From positions 1 through 38,125 of the IMG/VR virus record IMGVR_UViG_3300038809_000043: 38,125 bases of DNA; one strand, given 5' to 3'. This document shows, piece by piece, positions 342 through 12,731 of the stretch (the first letter of the stretch is position 1; each line of letters starts with the position of its first letter). A program made the translations under genes and the position numbers. Below the pieces are notes generated by a model that did not search any database, was not told the origin of the DNA, and saw nothing but the letters and a program-made list of their open reading frames with translations. This DNA is from a virus. Lineage: Duplodnaviria > Caudoviricetes.

Positions 342-1571
342 TCAGGCCTTGGCTTCTAGGGCCGCGACCCTAGCGGCAAGGTCGTTCAGCTGGGCCTGCT
401 GGGCTTCGATCTTGGCGTACTTCTCGTCAATCTCCCGTGCCAGAGCGCTGACCATACCGCACAGCAGCTCCTCCTTGCGGAAGCTGTACCGGTCGCCAGC
501 CTCTCGCGCGGGCTGGATCAGCTCGCGGCCAGCCTCGACGGCGGGTTCAAGCTCGTTTCCGTCCTCGTCCAGAACGGCTTCCTTCCCAGGCCACTCGTAC
601 CACTGTTCCGGCTCAGCCTCCCACTCTTCGTAGCAGAATGGGGCATTCTCAAAGGCCTCGAGCCCATGATCCTTGAACACCTGCATGGCAGCCTGCACAG
701 TCGGGCCGAAGTGCTTGCGAGCCGCCTGTCCCTCTGCCTCGCAGTTCTCGTCACCGTGCACACGGCTCAGCCAGCGCCACACGGGCGGCAGGCGGCAGAC
801 GGCTGAGAACGCCTTGAATTCAGCATCCTTCAGATGGCGCGGCTCGGTCTTTAGGCGGGCGTCGGATCCAACGATTGGGGCGTTCTGCACATATAGGTTC
901 GACCAAACTGCAGTCGATGTTCCTAGCGAAGTTGTATTGGTGGTGTTTGGCCGAACATTGTTCGCAGGATTATCGACAATCATCCTGTCGCTAATCCATG
1001 TTATGCCAGTTGCATAAGCCCTTAGATTCTTCACAGACCCAGCATAGAGGCCAATAAGCATTTGGCTTGATGTTACTGGAAGATCGTAGTAGATGTTCCC
1101 AGGGAATGAGACGTTGCTGGCGGGGTAGCTAGTAATTCTTGGCCCAGTCGTCGTGCCTCCGGCCACTTGCAATGTCAGCCTGCTCACGCCGTTTAGAACC
1201 AAGTCATCGGCTGAGATAGACGTAATGTCTGTGTTTGCTCCACTTGCTGCTGCCCCAAGTGCCGTCCTCTGCGCCACCTGGGTGGTGGCGGCAAGGAGGG
1301 CGCGGCCTACGCCGGTCAGGTCGTAGGTCGCCCATGCCGAGCCGGTGTAGTAGATCGACTTGTCGGCGGCATAGGTCAGGCCCGCGATTCCGGTCAGGTC
1401 AGTATCAAGAGGCTGGTAGGCCAGTGCGGCAGCTGGGACCGTCAGCAGCGGGGTGACGGTGCCAGCACTGCTCTTGGTCGATGGCACGCCGCTGGCATCA
1501 ATGAACAGCGTCGTCTTGCTCGCAGCCGGGGTAGTGGCCGAGGCGCCAGCGGTATTGGTAAGAACGAACAT
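342..1571 (-). CDS. tail fiber/spike protein with C-terminal intramolecular chaperone (peptidase S74-like)
   Basis: GAAASGANTDITS fiber motif, VRPNTTNTTSLGTSTAVWSNLY, autocleavage-type SDARLK, C-terminal coiled coil; last gene of tail cluster. Confidence 0.8.
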   Translation of the reverse strand: MFVLTNTAGASATTPAASKTTLFIDASGVPSTKSSAGTVTPLLTVPAAALAYQPLDTDLTGIAGLTYAADKSIYYTGSAWATYDLTGVGRALLAATTQVAQRTALGAAASGANTDITSISADDLVLNGVSRLTLQVAGGTTTGPRITSYPASNVSFPGNIYYDLPVTSSQMLIGLYAGSVKNLRAYATGITWISDRMIVDNPANNVRPNTTNTTSLGTSTAVWSNLYVQNAPIVGSDARLKTEPRHLKDAEFKAFSAVCRLPPVWRWLSRVHGDENCEAEGQAARKHFGPTVQAAMQVFKDHGLEAFENAPFCYEEWEAEPEQWYEWPGKEAVLDEDGNELEPAVEAGRELIQPAREAGDRYSFRKEELLCGMVSALAREIDEKYAKIEAQQAQLNDLAARVAALEAKA

Positions 1572-3496
1572 CAGGAAACCTCCACAAGGACGCCATCGAC
1601 CGTCATCGTTGCCCCCGTCCCGAACTCAATCGGGAGCGTGAACAAGGCCTGCCGGTTCTGCGGGACGAGATAGTTGGTGTTGTTGGCGAGGAAGAACGGC
1701 ACGGCGCCGCCCTCGACTAGCTGCGTGTACTGGGCTGAGGTGAGGTGGTAGTACTCGCCCGAGGTGCCGCCCTGCAGGCCTGGCAGGCTGTTGTGGTCGG
1801 GGGTTGCCCCGCTGCTGGCCTGAAGCGCGCCAAACTTGCTGACCGGCGCGAAGGTGGCACTCCCCAGAAGACCAAGCAGACCGCGATTGATGATCAGGTA
1901 GCACCGCAGAATCCCGTTCTCGGCGATGTTCTGCTCGGTGTTGAAGGCATCGATGGTGATGCCGTTGATCGCCGCCTGAGCGCTGGAATAGAGCTGCTGG
2001 CCGTACTGGATACGGGTTTGTCCCGACTGGAACAGGCTGATCCGCTGGACGTGCCACTGGTTTCCAAGGATCGGGATGTTGGTCAGGACACCCGGAGAGC
2101 TCTCGTACTGGTTCGGGTTGATGCTGGTGGTGTCAGCGCCCTCAGTGCCATTGCTCAGCCGGTAGCGGAACGTCAGCGCCGTCTGCGAGCTCTGGCTGAC
2201 AACGTGCGGGTCCAGGTTGTTGGCCTGGAAGTTGGAGCCCATCTTGAAGATGGATCCACCCGTCTTGTTGATGTTGAGGTTCGCGCCATTGGCGCTGTAG
2301 ACGTTGCCCGTCAGGTTCAGCGGGCCCACTGCCATCATCAGGTCGCCAACCTGATTCACTCCGGCTCGGATCGTGGCCGCCTGATCGTTGATCGCGTTGA
2401 GGTTGACGTTGTTGCTGTGCACCAGCACGCCGATCTGGGCGATTGTGCGCCGCTGAGCATTGGAGAACGGGCTTGTCTGCTGGACGATGGTCCCGCCCGG
2501 CATCTGGATGCCGACATAGGTGGCATTGGCCGAGGCGATGTTGGTCACCACCTGGGCTGAGAACGGCCCGACCGTCAGCAGAACCCGGGTTGGCTGCGTC
2601 GGGGTGACGCTCCAGTCCGTGTAGCCGATCACCGCCTGCGCCATATCGAACCGGGCATTGTTGCCCGCGTTGATCGTTAGGGCGCCGCCGTTGATGACGC
2701 CCGTAGATTCGAACAGGGCCGGTCGCCACCAGCCACGCTGACCGGCCGAGTTGGTGCTGTACTCGGTCAGCGCTGCCGGAGTCGCCTGATCGTTGTCCAG
2801 CTGCAGGATGATGCCGCCCGACCCGTTCGGCGTCACCTTGACGCTGTTCGGGCCGGTTACATCGCTGGGCTGCAGCGCAGTCACCGCCTCAGCCAGCGCC
2901 GCCAGCACCTCTGGGGCCAGAGACAGGGTTGGCAGGCCAGCAGCCGCATTCCCGTTCGCCACGTTGATCTGCTGGGCCGTACCGGTGATCGTGGCTGCCT
3001 TGGTGCCAGTGACCCGGCCTTTGCCATCCCGGGTGATCGCGAGCAGAGTGCCGGCGCCAGAGTCGGCCACATCGGCCAGGCCGAACGTGGTCACGCCATC
3101 GGGGCCGACAGTCTTCGTCAGCTCGCCGCCGTTGACCGTGATCGTGCCCGAAACGGGGAACCAGCCCTTGGTGCCAGTCGGACCGGTGCCGTAGTACTCC
3201 GTATTGCCCGGGCTGTCCTCGTCGCCCTGCAGCGTGATGATCACCACGTGCCCTGGCTGCGGGATGCCGTTCACCGCGATGGACTGCTGGCCGAGGATCT
3301 GGAAGCTGCCGCCGTCGCCGTCTTCCAGCGCCGCTACTCGGGCCGCAAGGGCTTCATAGAGCGCGCGCAGATCGTCATTGGATTGGGCCGAAGCCAACCG
3401 CAGGAAGTAGTTCGCCCACGCCTGCGTCACTCTACCTGCCTGATCGACTACCGGCTGGTCAAAGCGCGGCTGCTCGCCAGGGAATCGGTTGACCAT
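1571..3496 (-). CDS. tail fiber/structural tail protein (~641 aa)
   Basis: Start at ATG 3496 (TGATG overlap); Gly/Thr-rich with fiber-type ITRDGKGRVT and ITGTAQQINVANG segments; lies between two other tail genes. Confidence 0.7.
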   Translation of the reverse strand: MVNRFPGEQPRFDQPVVDQAGRVTQAWANYFLRLASAQSNDDLRALYEALAARVAALEDGDGGSFQILGQQSIAVNGIPQPGHVVIITLQGDEDSPGNTEYYGTGPTGTKGWFPVSGTITVNGGELTKTVGPDGVTTFGLADVADSGAGTLLAITRDGKGRVTGTKAATITGTAQQINVANGNAAAGLPTLSLAPEVLAALAEAVTALQPSDVTGPNSVKVTPNGSGGIILQLDNDQATPAALTEYSTNSAGQRGWWRPALFESTGVINGGALTINAGNNARFDMAQAVIGYTDWSVTPTQPTRVLLTVGPFSAQVVTNIASANATYVGIQMPGGTIVQQTSPFSNAQRRTIAQIGVLVHSNNVNLNAINDQAATIRAGVNQVGDLMMAVGPLNLTGNVYSANGANLNINKTGGSIFKMGSNFQANNLDPHVVSQSSQTALTFRYRLSNGTEGADTTSINPNQYESSPGVLTNIPILGNQWHVQRISLFQSGQTRIQYGQQLYSSAQAAINGITIDAFNTEQNIAENGILRCYLIINRGLLGLLGSATFAPVSKFGALQASSGATPDHNSLPGLQGGTSGEYYHLTSAQYTQLVEGGAVPFFLANNTNYLVPQNRQALFTLPIEFGTGATMTVDGVLVEVS

Positions 3497-4272
3497 CAGC
3501 TGGCTACCTTGCCGATGGCGCTCCACTGGATCGGGATCGGGCTGCTCAGGTTGTATTCACTGCCCAGCTGCGGGATGTTCAAATCCCAATAGATGGTCAG
3601 CTGCGTGGTACTGGCGGTCCAGCCCAAGCATCCGATGAAGCCAGCACCGACAACGCCGCTCCCGCGATTGATACCGACTGTGCAATAAGGAACCGCCACA
3701 TAGGCAGTCGGGAACGTAATGACCGTCGAAGAAAGCTTCGTACCGCTGGCCGGGATGCTGCCAGTGCCCCACTGCTGCAGGATGTTGCCTGTCTTGACCG
3801 AGTTGTCAGTGACAACCGGCACCGTCGGATAGGACGGGAACGACTGCAGGACGTACACGCCACCGCTGGCAACCGGAACCTTGCCGTCCGAGCCGGTCGG
3901 GTCCGGCAGCTGGAGCACATCGCCCCACAGGTAGACCGAGCCGTCATTGGTCAGGAACTTGCCAGCCTCCATCGGCGGGATCACGGCTTGGCCGGTCGAG
4001 CCATCGCTCACATCGCGAGTCCAGATCACCGCACCCAGGCTGTCGGTCAGGCGCACCGAGTAGGAGCCAGACAGCCAGATGTTCACGTTGGCCCGGCCAG
4101 AGCTATCCAGCGGCACAGGATTGGCGTTCGGGATCGTCAGCCCCTGATCAGACCACGTGAGCTTCGGCGTGGTCGTTCCGATCTCGTAGAACTGCAGGAA
4201 CCCACCGGCCACCGGCTGGTTGCTCAGCATGTCGAAATAGACCGGATTCGGGTCGTAAAAGCGTCCGCTCAT
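3496..4272 (-). CDS. tailspike/adaptor with P22 gp9-like virion-binding N-domain and small C-terminal beta domain
   Basis: N-terminus (NQPVAGGFLQFYEIGTTTP...NPVPLDSSGRA...YSVRLTD) resembles tailspike head-binding domains; C-terminal GNILQQWG...ITFPTAY typical of fiber tip domains; start placed at ATG 4272, downstream of the terminators. Confidence 0.7.
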   Translation of the reverse strand: MSGRFYDPNPVYFDMLSNQPVAGGFLQFYEIGTTTPKLTWSDQGLTIPNANPVPLDSSGRANVNIWLSGSYSVRLTDSLGAVIWTRDVSDGSTGQAVIPPMEAGKFLTNDGSVYLWGDVLQLPDPTGSDGKVPVASGGVYVLQSFPSYPTVPVVTDNSVKTGNILQQWGTGSIPASGTKLSSTVITFPTAYVAVPYCTVGINRGSGVVGAGFIGCLGWTASTTQLTIYWDLNIPQLGSEYNLSSPIPIQWSAIGKVAS

Positions 4273-4282
4273 GGGATCTCCC

Positions 4283-4343
4283 AAAGAAAAAGCCCGCTCA
4301 GGGCGGGCTTCGGGCATAAAAAAACCCGCTCAAGGCGGGATTT
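4283..4343 (-). terminator. two tandem near-duplicate Rho-independent terminators
   Basis: AAGCCCGC-TCAGG-GCGGGCTT (4290-4310) and CCCGC-TCAAG-GCGGG (4325-4339), each with an A-run on its left (U-tail on minus strand). Confidence 0.75.
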
Positions 4344-9572: not shown

Positions 9573-10130
9573 TCAGCTCTCCAATACCGAGTAGTCGTCG
9601 TTTGTCACGGCCCAGCGATACGCCAGCCGTAGCCCTTTGTTCTTGTTGTCCAGCTCGCAGCAGCGCTTGAACGCCCACACAGGGCCGTCTGTGCCTCGTA
9701 CCCAGAGATCGATGTCCCAGCTGTAGTGCTTCACGTCGTGGGGCACACCGCCGCGCTGGAAGGCCTTCTCGGCCACGTAATCCAGGCGGAACCCGACGCG
9801 CTCGGTCAGCCGCATGGCCGGGATGTTGTCCACCGGCACCTTCGTGACGATCTTGGTCACCTCAGTGCCGCAGAACAGGTACTCAGCGGCCTGCGCACAG
9901 AACCCCGCCACGCCCTTGGAGTGCGGCAGGAACATCGTGTGCACCTCCACGACCCCATCACCCAGACGGTGGAAGAAGAACCCGCCGCCCTCAAACTCGA
10001 TCCCGATCCCCTGGTCGAAGATCCGAGCAAGCGGCAACGGCCCATCCACGCCGTCCGGGGCAATCCACGGACGCACGGCAGGGTGATCCATGACTTCCTG
10101 CAGGAAGCCTGGATCGGTTGCGATCTTCAT
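9573..10130 (-). CDS. GNAT-fold protein, P22 gp14-like
   Basis: VEVHTMFLP...KIVTKVPVDNIPAMRLTERVGF acetyltransferase-like pattern; position before gp7. Confidence 0.7.
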   Translation of the reverse strand: MKIATDPGFLQEVMDHPAVRPWIAPDGVDGPLPLARIFDQGIGIEFEGGGFFFHRLGDGVVEVHTMFLPHSKGVAGFCAQAAEYLFCGTEVTKIVTKVPVDNIPAMRLTERVGFRLDYVAEKAFQRGGVPHDVKHYSWDIDLWVRGTDGPVWAFKRCCELDNKNKGLRLAYRWAVTNDDYSVLES

Positions 10131-10357
10131 CAGTCGTCCGTCTGTTCCGGGGTCAGCACCGCGCCGATCACGTCGGTCTTGCGGGCAGAGGAAGTGGTGA
10201 ACTCAAAGATCCAGTTGCGCTTGCGGCCTAGGCGCATGTAGCGCTGGCGAACCTCGTACTCACCAGTAGCGCCCAGCGAACGCTCCTTCCAGTTAGACCA
10301 GTTCTGGCCCCGGTCGGTGCTGTACCGAAGTTTCAGGATGTGATCGGTATCGGCCAT
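10130..10357 (-). CDS. separately encoded C-terminal part of gp10-like tail hub (75 aa)
   Basis: LRYSTDRGQNWSNWKERSLGATGEYEVRQRYMRLGRKRNWIFEF matches the pattern of gp10-family C-termini; ATG 1 nt after upstream TGA. Confidence 0.75.
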   Translation of the reverse strand: MADTDHILKLRYSTDRGQNWSNWKERSLGATGEYEVRQRYMRLGRKRNWIFEFTTSSARKTDVIGAVLTPEQTDD

Positions 10358-10358
10358 G

Positions 10359-12731
10359 TCAGAGCACACAGGTTGCGTTGGCGTAGCTGGCCTCGTTTTG
10401 TCCGATAGCCACCATTCGGGCCAAAGACGGGGACCATGCCAAGAGGCGATAGGAATTCAGACCGGTATAGCCGGGCCACGTCAGTCCGCCATCCGTGCTG
10501 ACGCGCGTACTGGGCTGCGTTCCTTGTCCAACGGCTATCAATGCGTCCATCTCTGGAACATAGATCATGCTCGTCAGAGAGAGGCCGCCTACATTCAATC
10601 GAACCGTGAACGTAGAAAGGTCAGCGGTCTCGATGATGATTCCATCGTTCCGGTAGATGAAGAGCTTCTGTAGGCGCTCCACATACAGCAACCCGATAGC
10701 CCTGTTCCCGCCCCAAGATGGAACCTGGGTGGATGAAGTGTAGGGGCCAACGTCAATGGTTGACGTAGCGACCTTCCCGTCAAATCCCGAGATAAAGACG
10801 TACTTCCCGAGATGGGTCATATATGCCCAACTCGGCCCGCTACCTACGAGTGAGGCGAAACTAGTTCCACGCACCCAGTTGATTGCATCTACACCACCGC
10901 TCACTACGTTGGCGCCTTCGATTGCCAGGAACCCGCCGTTCACGAACTGCATTGACGCCAGGCTGATAATGAAGCTTGATCGGAGCGTTACGGTCTGGCC
11001 TCCATCGTCCGAGGACACAATCCCAGCATCACCAGCAAATGCCAGCACATGATTGGACGGATTCTCAGCTCCACTGAAGTAGTTCGCAGTTCCACTTTGC
11101 GGCCAAGAAATTCCGTCTGCACTGATCTTCCTCCCTGGGCCTGTACACGAGAAATACTTGCCCCAGAACGCGGACCAAAAGACCTGCCCAACGCCATAAG
11201 GTGATGCATACGGTCCACCTGCAAACCACGTGGTGAAGTTCCACGTCAGCGGCTTGATGGTGAACTGAGCTTGGAAGTTGGCGATGCGGCCGACGGCGTC
11301 GCGGGCCTGCGCAGAGACGGTGAAGGTTCCAACCTCGGGGCTAGGCCAGCTCAGGGCGCCGGACGGGCTGATGGTCAGCGTTACAGGGCCAGCAGACTTG
11401 CGAATGGTTACCGGAGTGGATCCACCCGTAGCCGTCAGGGTGGCGGTGTAGGTAGGGCCTGCGCAGGCATTGGCGAGAGTTCCGGACAGCGTCGGAGCGC
11501 CAGGGTACTGAGGGGCTGGGCCAAGCGGCGCCTGAGGGACCGTCGGCAGTGTGCCGGTGCCGAAGATCAGCTCGGCATTGGGGATGATCAACTGGCTCTG
11601 GTTGTCGTGCAGGACGCCCGTCACATGACGCCGGATCATCGGATCCCGGCCTTCAAGATAGTAGTCCCACTCAATGACCCAGATGCGGCCCGTCTGGAAG
11701 TCACCGCCGTACCACGTGTTTCCAGACTTCACGATGTGGCTCAGGCGCCAGCGATCCATGCCGAAGGATTGGCGGCGGGTCCACAGGCCGGTGACCACGT
11801 CATAGCCGAAGGTCAGCCCGCCCGGGAACGTCAGGTAGTAGACCTTATAGCCGCGATCCTCCCACACGTAGGAGATGGCCTCGGACCAGTTGAGTACGGC
11901 GATTGCCTTCTCAAGCGGCTGCGTCGAGATCCTCCGGGCTGCGTAGCCATCTGCCAGTCGGTAGACAATCCCATCATCGCCAAGCCAGAAGACGCTGTTG
12001 TCCAATTTCTGAATGGTGTGACGCGATGCGCATCCTCGCGCGATGGAACTCCTGCGATTCTGGAATGTCCCAGTGCTCTGCCCAGTATTGAAGAAGAACT
12101 CGGTAGTTCTCTGACCGAAAACTACTACCTCAGAGGCGTTTGATGCCAGGCCAACGATCTTGTCGGGCGATGCCTCAGCCTCATACCGATCAAGAGTGTT
12201 GTAGTCGGCGGCATCCGCCAGATTGGAGTGGAACCAATACCGGCCAAGCGGCTCGACCCCGAGCATGTAGGAGTCGAGGTAATCCGACGAGATCGAGCCC
12301 GGATAGCCCTCGTCCGTGATCTTGGCGAAGGTGTTGTCCACCGTGCTGTAGACGTACCCGCCACCACCCTGCCCGTTCTCGACCAGCAGCTGATAGCCGG
12401 TCTTGAACTGGTTGTGCGTCATCTGCACGCGGCTGACGCCAGGAATCAGACCGAGCGCGTCGACGCCGCCATCCACTCTCTTCCGGTACAGCGTCTGCCC
12501 AGAGACAAAGTAGAGCTGCCCCTCAAGATCGTGCATGCCACGGATCGGCGCGGAGCCAGCCCCCAGCCACAGGTTCTCCCGAAGGCCCGGGCACGTTTCC
12601 AGCTTCCACGGCGTGCGCGTTCCAGCAACCTCGGCACGGGTTGGCAGCCAGTTCACCGTGTCCTGGCACGACCACGGCAGGCTGTCGTCGGTGTAGAAGC
12701 CGCCAATGATCTCGATGGGGTTTGCGCGCAT
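10359..12731 (-). CDS. gp10-like tail hub N-terminal part fused to Ig-like domain and Asp-box beta-propeller (790 aa)
   Basis: Start ATG 12731 (TAATG); gp10 motifs PIRGMH, AEASPDKIV, VFGQRTTEFF, LDNSVFWLG, YYLTFP..TFGYD; after ELIFGTG comes a Pro linker, Ig-like strand pattern, then SxDGxxW repeats. Confidence 0.85.
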   Translation of the reverse strand: MRANPIEIIGGFYTDDSLPWSCQDTVNWLPTRAEVAGTRTPWKLETCPGLRENLWLGAGSAPIRGMHDLEGQLYFVSGQTLYRKRVDGGVDALGLIPGVSRVQMTHNQFKTGYQLLVENGQGGGGYVYSTVDNTFAKITDEGYPGSISSDYLDSYMLGVEPLGRYWFHSNLADAADYNTLDRYEAEASPDKIVGLASNASEVVVFGQRTTEFFFNTGQSTGTFQNRRSSIARGCASRHTIQKLDNSVFWLGDDGIVYRLADGYAARRISTQPLEKAIAVLNWSEAISYVWEDRGYKVYYLTFPGGLTFGYDVVTGLWTRRQSFGMDRWRLSHIVKSGNTWYGGDFQTGRIWVIEWDYYLEGRDPMIRRHVTGVLHDNQSQLIIPNAELIFGTGTLPTVPQAPLGPAPQYPGAPTLSGTLANACAGPTYTATLTATGGSTPVTIRKSAGPVTLTISPSGALSWPSPEVGTFTVSAQARDAVGRIANFQAQFTIKPLTWNFTTWFAGGPYASPYGVGQVFWSAFWGKYFSCTGPGRKISADGISWPQSGTANYFSGAENPSNHVLAFAGDAGIVSSDDGGQTVTLRSSFIISLASMQFVNGGFLAIEGANVVSGGVDAINWVRGTSFASLVGSGPSWAYMTHLGKYVFISGFDGKVATSTIDVGPYTSSTQVPSWGGNRAIGLLYVERLQKLFIYRNDGIIIETADLSTFTVRLNVGGLSLTSMIYVPEMDALIAVGQGTQPSTRVSTDGGLTWPGYTGLNSYRLLAWSPSLARMVAIGQNEASYANATCVL

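What the first reader, a model, noticed from the sequence alone, without database searches (positions are those of the whole stretch)
10130..12731. Split tail hub: gp10 broken at a loop, with an Ig + beta-propeller appendage and a separately encoded C-terminal piece
Seen: gp10-like sequence runs ~393 aa to ELIFGTG (~11553), then ~397 aa of Pro linker, an Ig-like domain and SxDGxxW repeats, then a stop. A 75-aa ORF starting 1 nt later, in a different frame, supplies the typical gp10 C-terminus (LRYSTDRGQNWS...GEY...RLG). 393+75=468 aa, close to the ~472 aa of P22 gp10 (established). Inference: the hub may assemble from two complementing polypeptides, freeing a C-terminus to display six copies of an exchangeable receptor- or glycan-binding module on the hub itself.
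Basis: partly seen in the sequence, partly recalled or inferred. Interest (0 to 1): 0.85.

Follow-up and report, generated by a model that had tools for sequence, protein, structure and literature searches.

The report
Split phage tail hub, swappable arm
In this short-tailed bacterial virus the tail-hub gene is cut in two, into a long protein ending in an arm that differs between close relatives and a 75-residue protein that likely snaps in to complete the hub, so the hub likely carries exchangeable host-binding arms; two-piece hubs are already known from other phages, and this is a variant of them.

Summary
Observation confirmed. ORF-A (790 aa) covers positions 1-400 of the P22 gp10 hub profile; ORF-B (75 aa, one base after the stop) covers 409-466. 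The split is real: all 28 of 33 related loci that hold both halves are split, in 46 of 47 same-type loci the second start lies -8 to +3 nt from the stop across all three frames, and ORF-B is under purifying selection. The break maps to a loop inside the beta-sandwich that docks on the gp4 ring. The arm (Ig plus predicted propeller) is swapped between hubs up to 99% identical. Relatives show intact, in-frame-insert and split-on-either-side forms at the same loop. Assembly of the halves is inferred (the complex prediction could not be run); host binding by the arm is about 60% likely. Two-piece nozzles are published (phiRIO-1; cryo-EM of A1002 and PhiXacm4-11), and this scan already reported the same system on other DNA (e1-3416117). 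New variant of a known kind; the distinctive part is a hypervariable cassette on a P22-type hub.

The parts
10359..12731 (-). ORF-A, 790 aa: gp10-type hub lacking its last 75 residues, plus C-terminal arm
11553..12731 (-). Hub part, aa 1-393: N-terminal strands of the apical beta-sandwich, hub propeller (about aa 45-356 by homology), and strands leading to the break
   Evidence: PHROG 578 profile 1-400; 43% to intact P0151 1-393; P0151 model vs Sf6 gp8 Z 37
11502..11552 (-). Proline-rich linker, aa 394-410, at the break loop
   Evidence: sequence; low pLDDT up to aa 407
11253..11501 (-). Ig-like stalk domain, aa 411-493 (He_PIG-like in relatives)
   Evidence: pLDDT about 90; this segment clusters together in 118 of 120 homologs; He_PIG above cut-off in many relatives, only Big_5 E 0.077 here
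10362..11252 (-). Variable distal domain, aa 494-790, predicted beta-propeller (likely seven blades); the swapped cassette
   Evidence: pLDDT above 90; best fold match YncE Z 24.3, rmsd 2.8, 276 aligned, among many generic propellers; DNA identity to L001 drops to 35-50% here; GC3 0.62 vs 0.79 in the hub part
10357..10361 (-). Junction TGA-C-ATG with no Shine-Dalgarno match upstream; likely translational coupling
   Evidence: anti-SD pairing +0.9 kcal/mol, weakest of nine window genes scored
10130..10357 (-). ORF-B, 75 aa: the hub's normal C-terminus, five predicted strands of the apical beta-sandwich
   Evidence: pN 0.020 vs pS 0.276 against L001
12731..13144 (-). gp4-like head-to-tail adaptor, the ring on which the apical domain docks in Sf6
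   Evidence: PF11650, PHROG 637; PMC9728967 passages
9573..10130 (-). GNAT-fold morphogenesis gene, followed by gp7-like and other ejection genes: the P22-type gene order around the hub
   Evidence: PHROG 651 and 598

Best explanation
The P22 gp10-type tail hub of this prophage is encoded by two adjacent genes; the two products likely reassemble by beta-strand complementation into one hub subunit, and the freed end of the long chain carries an exchangeable Ig-plus-propeller arm that likely binds the host surface. Steps: (1) shown: two ORFs with complementary coverage, conserved and under purifying selection. (2) Inferred: reinitiation at the stop-adjacent ATG makes the two chains in matched amounts. 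(3) Inferred from the model of an intact homolog and from Sf6: ORF-B supplies five strands of the apical beta-sandwich, whose other strands come from ORF-A; that domain docks each of six subunits on two gp4 adaptors, so ORF-B would be essential. (4) Shown: the distal domain, or the whole arm, is replaced between close relatives, with crossovers in the conserved flanks (Ig or hub upstream, ORF-B downstream). (5) Inferred: six arms project from the top of the tail and act as accessory adhesins beside the separate tail fibres. (6) Inferred origin: domains were first inserted in frame at this tolerant loop, then the gene broke before or after the insert; with a free end a passenger no longer has to return to the loop or keep frame with the last 75 codons.
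For: Split in all 28 of 33 loci that hold both halves and in Xylella phage Xfas53 (gp36 642 aa + gp37 72 aa). Among the best 80 viral loci found with ORF-B: 46 split like this one, 7 split otherwise, 26 intact, 1 in-frame insert. Start-to-stop spacing -8 to +3 in 46 of 47, spread over three frames 29/14/4, behind unrelated upstream sequence. 0 of 120 ORF-A homologs contain the C-piece. ORF-B dN/dS median 0.31 over 210 of 253 pairs. Intact homolog P0151: pLDDT 92, strand 381-391, weaker loop 391-400, five strands 401-467; TM 0.85 to P22 gp10, Z 37 to Sf6 gp8 over 438 residues. Sf6 apical domain is built from N- and C-terminal extensions and inserts between two adaptors (PMC9728967, passages). 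14 unrelated distal-domain clusters among 120 homologs, with hub pairs 99.2% identical carrying different ones. Passengers include a ConA/LamG lectin-like domain above the Pfam cut-off, BNR and WD40-like propellers, DUF7483, weak SPRY matches, and a GTA TIM-barrel that phage records name host specificity protein. Same loop holds in-frame inserts of 113-524 aa in 13 of the best 150 hits; the GTA TIM-barrel occurs both in frame (P0153) and fused only to the C-piece (P0136, L119). Published two-piece nozzles assemble this way (A1002, PMC13730344 sections 9 and 12; PhiXacm4-11, section 13).
Against: No expression, virion or binding data for this phage or any relative of this type. The window's propeller matches only generic propellers, with no ligand-specific relative, and a search for the propeller in shorter proteins found one 153-aa near-copy only. 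The phage has separate fibre or spike genes, so the arm need not be the main receptor binder. In A1002 the appendage freed by the split is a fibre dock, not a receptor binder. The trees do not resolve the order of events or the number of origins: split, intact and insert forms interleave on weak branches. A Shine-Dalgarno-like site of -4 kcal/mol or better precedes ORF-B in 25 of 47 loci, so coupling is not the only route to its translation.
Confidence: 0.62

Rival explanations
1. The split is real and the halves assemble, but the arm is a dock or scaffold for another virion protein (a fibre), as in A1002, T7 and SU10 nozzles.
For: A1002's freed appendage (rope plus Ig-like domain) docks fibre dimers; T7 gp12 has an outer fibre-dock domain between propeller and platform (PMC6702177 passages); SU10 has a short-fibre dock loop (PMC9509320 passages).
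Against: The arm changes class while fibre attachment parts stay nearly identical: spike-head region 99% (L061/L063) and 97% (window/L066), N-terminus of the 651-aa fibre 94% (window/L084); median spike-head identity 0.68 for same-class pairs and 0.64 for different-class pairs. Unrelated folds could hardly dock the same partner.
Confidence: 0.12
2. The halves assemble and the arm is displayed, but it is a low-specificity adhesin (biofilm matrix, surfaces) or a nearly neutral decoration with little effect on host range.
For: Separate fibre genes exist; hubs with no passenger at this loop are common (26 of 80 loci intact); Ig-like domains on phage particles are often weak accessory binders (own knowledge).
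Against: All 46 same-type loci keep an open passenger of 150-460 aa and it is replaced wholesale between near-identical hubs, the pattern expected of a domain under host-driven selection.
Confidence: 0.17
3. A programmed frameshift or readthrough joins the two ORFs into one chain, so the arm is an in-frame insertion at protein level.
For: True in-frame inserts at this loop exist (13 of 150; L122); 4 of 47 junctions are in the same frame.
Against: Offsets fall in all three frames, upstream sequences are unrelated, and ORF-B begins with its own ATG (45 of 47) or GTG (2 of 47) next to the stop; in five or more loci whole genes lie between the halves.
Confidence: 0.03
4. ORF-A forms a complete hub without ORF-B (the Ig domain replaces the lost strands), and ORF-B has another job.
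For: For VpV262 the displaced C-terminal homolog was proposed to have been reused in a fibre module (PMC4819975, figure legend passage).
Against: The Ig domain folds as its own confident unit; split forms without an Ig domain exist (L019, L020, L058); each of the 80 loci and the window has exactly one C-piece; ORF-B keeps the length and motifs of the intact C-terminus.
Confidence: 0.05
5. Sequencing error or a decaying prophage gene.
For: The record is a provirus; one related locus, L030, has its hub frame closed after 66 codons near a contig end.
Against: Independent contig spans the junction unchanged; same break in dozens of loci and in a cultured phage; purifying selection on both halves.
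Confidence: 0.01

Closest known systems
P22 gp10 / Sf6 gp8 / cyanophage Pam1 and Pan3 tail hub (PF11134, PHROG 578)
   Same: Sequence profile, gene order (portal, scaffold, coat, gp4, hub, GNAT, ejection genes) and, through an intact homolog, the fold: interrupted propeller plus apical beta-sandwich.
   Different: These are single chains of 442-472 aa with no appendage at this loop; here two genes and a 397-aa arm.
Pseudomonas phage A1002 split nozzle gp42 + gp39 (PMC13730344; abstract, sections 9 and 12 and passages read)
   Same: Nozzle made of two proteins that complete each other by beta-strands; a freed terminus carries a long appendage with an Ig-like domain.
   Different: Break leaves propeller blades 1-2 incomplete and the C-half is 620 aa; the appendage is on the C-half and docks fibres. 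Here the break is inside the apical sandwich, the C-half is 75 aa, and the arm is on the N-half and varies between relatives.
Xanthomonas phage PhiXacm4-11 nozzle gp30:gp31 (bioRxiv 10.64898/2026.02.16.706137; section 13 and passages read)
   Same: Hexamer of heterodimers; extra radial beta-sandwich domains, two of them built from strands of both chains.
   Different: Compared by its authors with T7 gp12 and described as circularly permuted; no small C-terminal plug, and no variation between relatives in the parts read.
phiRIO-1 tube B gp44 + gp40 and VpV262 tube B + gp52 (Hardies et al. 2016, PMC4819975; passages and Table 1 read)
   Same: Tube B split in two, both halves found in virions; in VpV262 the C-terminus is replaced by unrelated sequence and its homolog is encoded two genes downstream.
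   Different: RIO-1 group, halves of 35 and 44 kDa; the paper calls such splits uncommon and lists Xfas53 gp36 as the tube B without noting a split in the passages seen.
Xylella phage Xfas53 gp36 + gp37 (NC_013599)
   Same: Same architecture: 642-aa hub part with Ig and distal domain, then a 72-aa C-piece overlapping the stop by four bases.
   Different: Different distal domain; the record names gp37 only 'conserved phage protein'. The genome paper was not available to check.

Membership tests
P22 gp10-type tail hub (PF11134 / PHROG 578) | Profile match over the full family length | tested here: met
   PHROG 578 positions 1-400 by ORF-A and 409-466 by ORF-B; met only by the two ORFs together
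P22 gp10-type tail hub (PF11134 / PHROG 578) | Pfam PF11134 gathering score | tested here: inconclusive
   ORF-A 21.2 bits vs cut-off 25, ORF-B no match; some relatives pass
P22 gp10-type tail hub (PF11134 / PHROG 578) | Position after the gp4 adaptor and before the ejection genes | tested here: met
P22 gp10-type tail hub (PF11134 / PHROG 578) | Interrupted propeller plus apical beta-sandwich fold | tested here: met
   Shown on intact homolog P0151 (43% and 39% identical to the halves): TM 0.85 to P22 gp10, Z 37 to Sf6 gp8. The direct model of ORF-A's hub part was low confidence
P22 gp10-type tail hub (PF11134 / PHROG 578) | One polypeptide supplies both ends of the apical domain | tested here: not met
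   Two ORFs; hence a split variant, not a canonical member
P22 gp10-type tail hub (PF11134 / PHROG 578) | Hexamer docked on the gp4 ring in the virion | not testable with these tools
   Taken from Sf6 (PMC9728967)
Two-piece podophage nozzles (phiRIO-1, A1002, PhiXacm4-11) | Two genes with complementary coverage of one nozzle | tested here: met
Two-piece podophage nozzles (phiRIO-1, A1002, PhiXacm4-11) | Chains complete each other by beta-strands | not tested
   Complex prediction could not be run; inferred from strand positions in the intact model
Two-piece podophage nozzles (phiRIO-1, A1002, PhiXacm4-11) | Both chains present in virions | not testable with these tools
   No proteomics
Two-piece podophage nozzles (phiRIO-1, A1002, PhiXacm4-11) | Same break position as A1002 | tested here: not met
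   A1002 breaks with propeller blades incomplete; here the propeller (about 45-356) is whole and the break is at 393-400: likely independent origin
BNR/Asp-box or WD40-like beta-propeller (arm) | Propeller fold | tested here: met
   pLDDT above 90; Z 24.3, rmsd 2.8, 276 aligned
BNR/Asp-box or WD40-like beta-propeller (arm) | Pfam BNR repeat score | tested here: inconclusive
   No BNR match for the window protein; Atlas neighbours at 0.90-0.92 carry BNR or DUF6242_C; one relative passes the cut-off
Phage receptor-binding protein | Binds a host surface ligand | not testable with these tools
   Indirect only: passenger families and swapping
Programmed frameshift | Conserved frame offset and signal at the junction | tested here: not met
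   Three frames, unrelated upstream sequence

The most novel reading that the evidence does not exclude
One loop of the P22-type hub is a general plug-and-socket site: the last 75 residues work as a portable strand-donor tag that locks into the hub, so either half (or both, or a third gene as in L124) can carry a passenger. In Stenotrophomonas-type prophages this has become a hypervariable cassette that places six host-recognition heads on the hub itself, a second host-range locus independent of the tail fibres, and a natural split-protein display system.
Probability: 0.4. Interest if true: 0.75.

Novelty: new variant of a known kind. Interest (0 to 1): 0.52.

Why it matters
P22 gp10 is treated as one of the most conserved single-chain tail parts, and host range in these phages is read from spikes and fibres. 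If the reading holds, a widespread group of Xanthomonadaceae prophages carries a second, fast-swapping adhesion module on the hub, which annotation misses (the long half is often named Ig-domain protein, the short half hypothetical). The series intact, in-frame insert, split before or after the insert at one loop gives a testable case of how gene fission frees a terminus for domain shuffling. The principle of a two-piece nozzle is already published, which limits the surprise.

Tried and rejected
Complex prediction of hub part plus ORF-B: not run, the queue was full; no verdict. AlphaFold of ORF-A alone gave a low-confidence hub part (pLDDT 25-69 over aa 1-407); this may reflect a shallow alignment or the missing strands, so it is not used as evidence. 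Foldseek on that model gave only generic propeller proteins. No RNA holder listed for the stretch; runs X1 and X2 may be the source of the window and were not counted as independent. Search for the propeller in proteins of 30-433 aa: one near-copy only; longer proteins were not searched. Trees of the hub part (70 rows; 39 rows) did not settle one origin against several: same-type splits were never one clade in 200 bootstrap trees, but strong branches force no more than one origin. ORF-B's similarity to sialidases and sortilin comes from one Asp-box-like motif and was rejected; 16 of the 150 hits were such repeats and were set aside before classing the rest. The break-motif script missed 31 of 120 proteins and was replaced by an alignment-based cut. 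The Xfas53 genome paper was not held. Literature searches found two-piece nozzles but no description of this P22-type split with a variable arm; subscription papers and supplements were not seen.
Full report
Setting. The window is a whole IMG/VR provirus record of 38,125 bases, estimated complete. The minus strand carries a P22-type virion module: terminase, portal, scaffold, coat, gp4 adaptor, the hub region, a GNAT-fold gene, ejection genes and fibre genes. The closest cultured phage is Xylella phage Xfas53; the closest named full-length homologs of the hub are from Stenotrophomonas, which is therefore the likely host (inference).

Observation. ORF-A (12731..10359, 790 aa) is followed, one base after its TGA, by ORF-B (10357..10130, 75 aa). 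PHROG 578 is matched at positions 1-400 by ORF-A and 409-466 by ORF-B; the Pam1 hub chain at 50-361 and 367-409; an intact homolog, P0151, at 1-393 and 400-469. The SxDGxxW repeats are few and under Pfam thresholds, but AlphaFold gives aa 411-790 at pLDDT about 90 or more, as an Ig-like domain and a propeller whose best fold matches are generic (Z 24.3, rmsd 2.8, 276 aligned).

The split is real. Of 33 loci found with the hub part, 28 hold both halves and all 28 are split; 5 are cut by contig ends, and one of those (L030) also has an early stop. At least three pairs among them are the same or nearly the same prophage seen twice. Xfas53 has the same arrangement (gp36, gp37). Searching with ORF-B gave 158 confirmed viral loci, of which the best 80 were kept (many overlapping the first set): 46 are split like the window, 7 are split with other layouts, 26 are intact and 1 has an in-frame insert. 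In a sample of 401 genomes of the host family, 15 had a match (a floor, since 14 candidates were scored per genome): 8 split and 7 intact. In the 47 same-type loci, window included, the ORF-B start lies at -8 (5), -4 (13), -1 (10), +1 (9), +2 (6), +3 (3) or +24 (1) from the stop, in all three frames. That excludes a sequencing error and a single programmed frameshift, and points to selection for stop-start coupling; in the window there is no Shine-Dalgarno match, though 25 of 47 loci have one of -4 kcal/mol or better. A contig from a different study spans the junction without a gap. ORF-B is under purifying selection: pN 0.020 against pS 0.276 to L001, and a median dN/dS of 0.31 over 210 of 253 pairs among 23 loci, against 0.21 for the hub part. 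None of the 120 best of 332 ORF-A homologs contains the C-piece.

Where the break lies. The intact homolog P0151 folds at pLDDT 92 and superposes on P22 gp10 (TM 0.85) and Sf6 gp8 (Z 37, rmsd 2.3, 438 residues). Generic propellers align to about residues 45-356, so residues 1-45 and 357-470 form the apical domain. The break falls between strand 381-391 and strand 401-408, in the weakest-confidence loop; ORF-B corresponds to the last five strands. In Sf6 this domain is made of N- and C-terminal extensions and inserts between two adaptor subunits (PMC9728967, passages); in T7 the equivalent platform also mixes N- and C-terminal strands (PMC6702177, passages). ORF-A alone would therefore have an incomplete sandwich, and ORF-B would be needed to dock the hub. 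This step is inference: the two-chain prediction could not be run.

The arm is a swapped cassette. Among 120 homologs the segment after the break clusters together in 118 (the Ig stalk), but the distal domains fall into 14 unrelated clusters, and hubs 99.2% identical carry unrelated ones. Families seen in a picked set of representatives: WD40-like and BNR propellers, ConA/LamG, DUF7483, weak SPRY. DNA identity between the window and L001 is 76-96% through the hub and Ig, 35-50% over most of the propeller, and 90% or more again in ORF-B; against L003 the drop starts at the Ig. A contig of run X3 has 814 bases of the propeller replaced by 805 others between near-identical flanks. The propeller has lower GC3 (0.62) than the hub part (0.79) or ORF-B (0.80). 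Arm class changes while the spike-head region stays 97-99% identical and the fibre N-terminus 94%, which argues against a dock for those proteins and for an outward-facing binder. No ligand can be named; host binding is about 60% likely.

Origin. A profile search with ORF-B over 1.84 billion representatives gave 4,124 hits; of the best 150, 16 are Asp-box repeat proteins (set aside), 58 are intact hubs or fragments of them, 13 have an in-frame insert of 113-524 aa at this same loop, 35 are stand-alone C-pieces and 28 are C-pieces behind another N-terminal part (no context, so some of the last two classes may be contig-end fragments). A GTA TIM-barrel occurs in frame in P0153 and fused only to the C-piece in P0136 and L119, where the N-half carries a second passenger. 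In L020-type loci a glycosyltransferase-like gene lies between the halves and the passenger is on the C-piece. This series fits insertion followed by fission on either side of the insert. Trees place in-frame-insert forms next to the split group but interleave all forms on weak branches, so direction and number of origins stay open.

Comparison with what is known. Two-piece nozzles are published. phiRIO-1 tube B is two virion proteins, and VpV262 has a replaced C-terminus with its homolog two genes downstream (PMC4819975, passages and Table 1). Cryo-EM of A1002 shows two chains completing each other by beta-strands, with a rope and Ig-like appendage that docks fibres (PMC13730344, abstract, sections 9 and 12). 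PhiXacm4-11 has a heterodimeric nozzle with four radial extra domains (bioRxiv 10.64898/2026.02.16.706137, section 13). These raise confidence in the mechanism and lower the novelty. What differs here is the P22 gp10 lineage, the break inside the apical sandwich, the 75-residue plug, and the hypervariable arm. Nine searches found no description of this form; the Xfas53 genome paper was not held, and supplements were not read, so a passing mention cannot be excluded. Two earlier notes of this scan describe the same system and a related layout on other DNA; my reading was recorded before seeing them, and they are not counted as evidence.

Verdict. Real, conserved and functional split (about 0.95); assembly by strand complementation (about 0.9); arm as host-surface binder with an effect on adsorption (about 0.6). 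New variant of a known kind, interest 0.52.

Noticed in passing
L124:7462-10219: Possible three-piece hub: the N-half stops in the middle of its Ig domain (Ig profile 13-71 of 104); the next ORF, LamG-like, carries a weak match to the missing Ig strands (profile 67-100, E 5e-4) inside it; a stand-alone 73-aa C-piece follows. One locus only.
   Followed up: partly
L020:4001-6488; also L092, L093, L097, L104: Hub N-half without an arm, then a 209-212-aa glycosyltransferase family 2-like gene, then a C-piece with about 140 extra N-terminal residues; a glycosyltransferase-like gene inside a tail module is unexplained.
   Followed up: partly
L119:6773-10216 and proteins P0136, P0153: GTA TIM-barrel domain (named host specificity protein in Xanthomonas phage records) found in frame in one hub and fused to the C-piece alone in another, where the N-half carries its own 155-aa passenger.
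   Followed up: partly
L101:6769-10219: N-half with a short repetitive tail, an unrelated 315-aa ORF, then a 268-aa protein ending in the C-piece.
   Followed up: no
window 342-4317 (-): Fibre or spike functions are spread over three ORFs: 273 aa with a weak match to the Pam1 tailspike head-binding domain (E 0.006), 651 aa with tail-fibre PHROG matches, and 409 aa with an S74 chaperone domain. Their N-terminal parts are conserved and the rest varies among relatives.
   Followed up: partly
window 9573-10357 (-): No separate tail-needle gene lies between the hub and the GNAT-fold gene, where P22 has gp26 (gene order recalled); Xfas53 also shows none there. Which protein plugs the channel was not worked out.
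   Followed up: no
L061-L089, coat and gp4 columns: Loci with hub parts 64-87% identical to the window carry coat proteins from 28% to 99% identical or with no match, so head modules are also exchanged around the hub.
   Followed up: no
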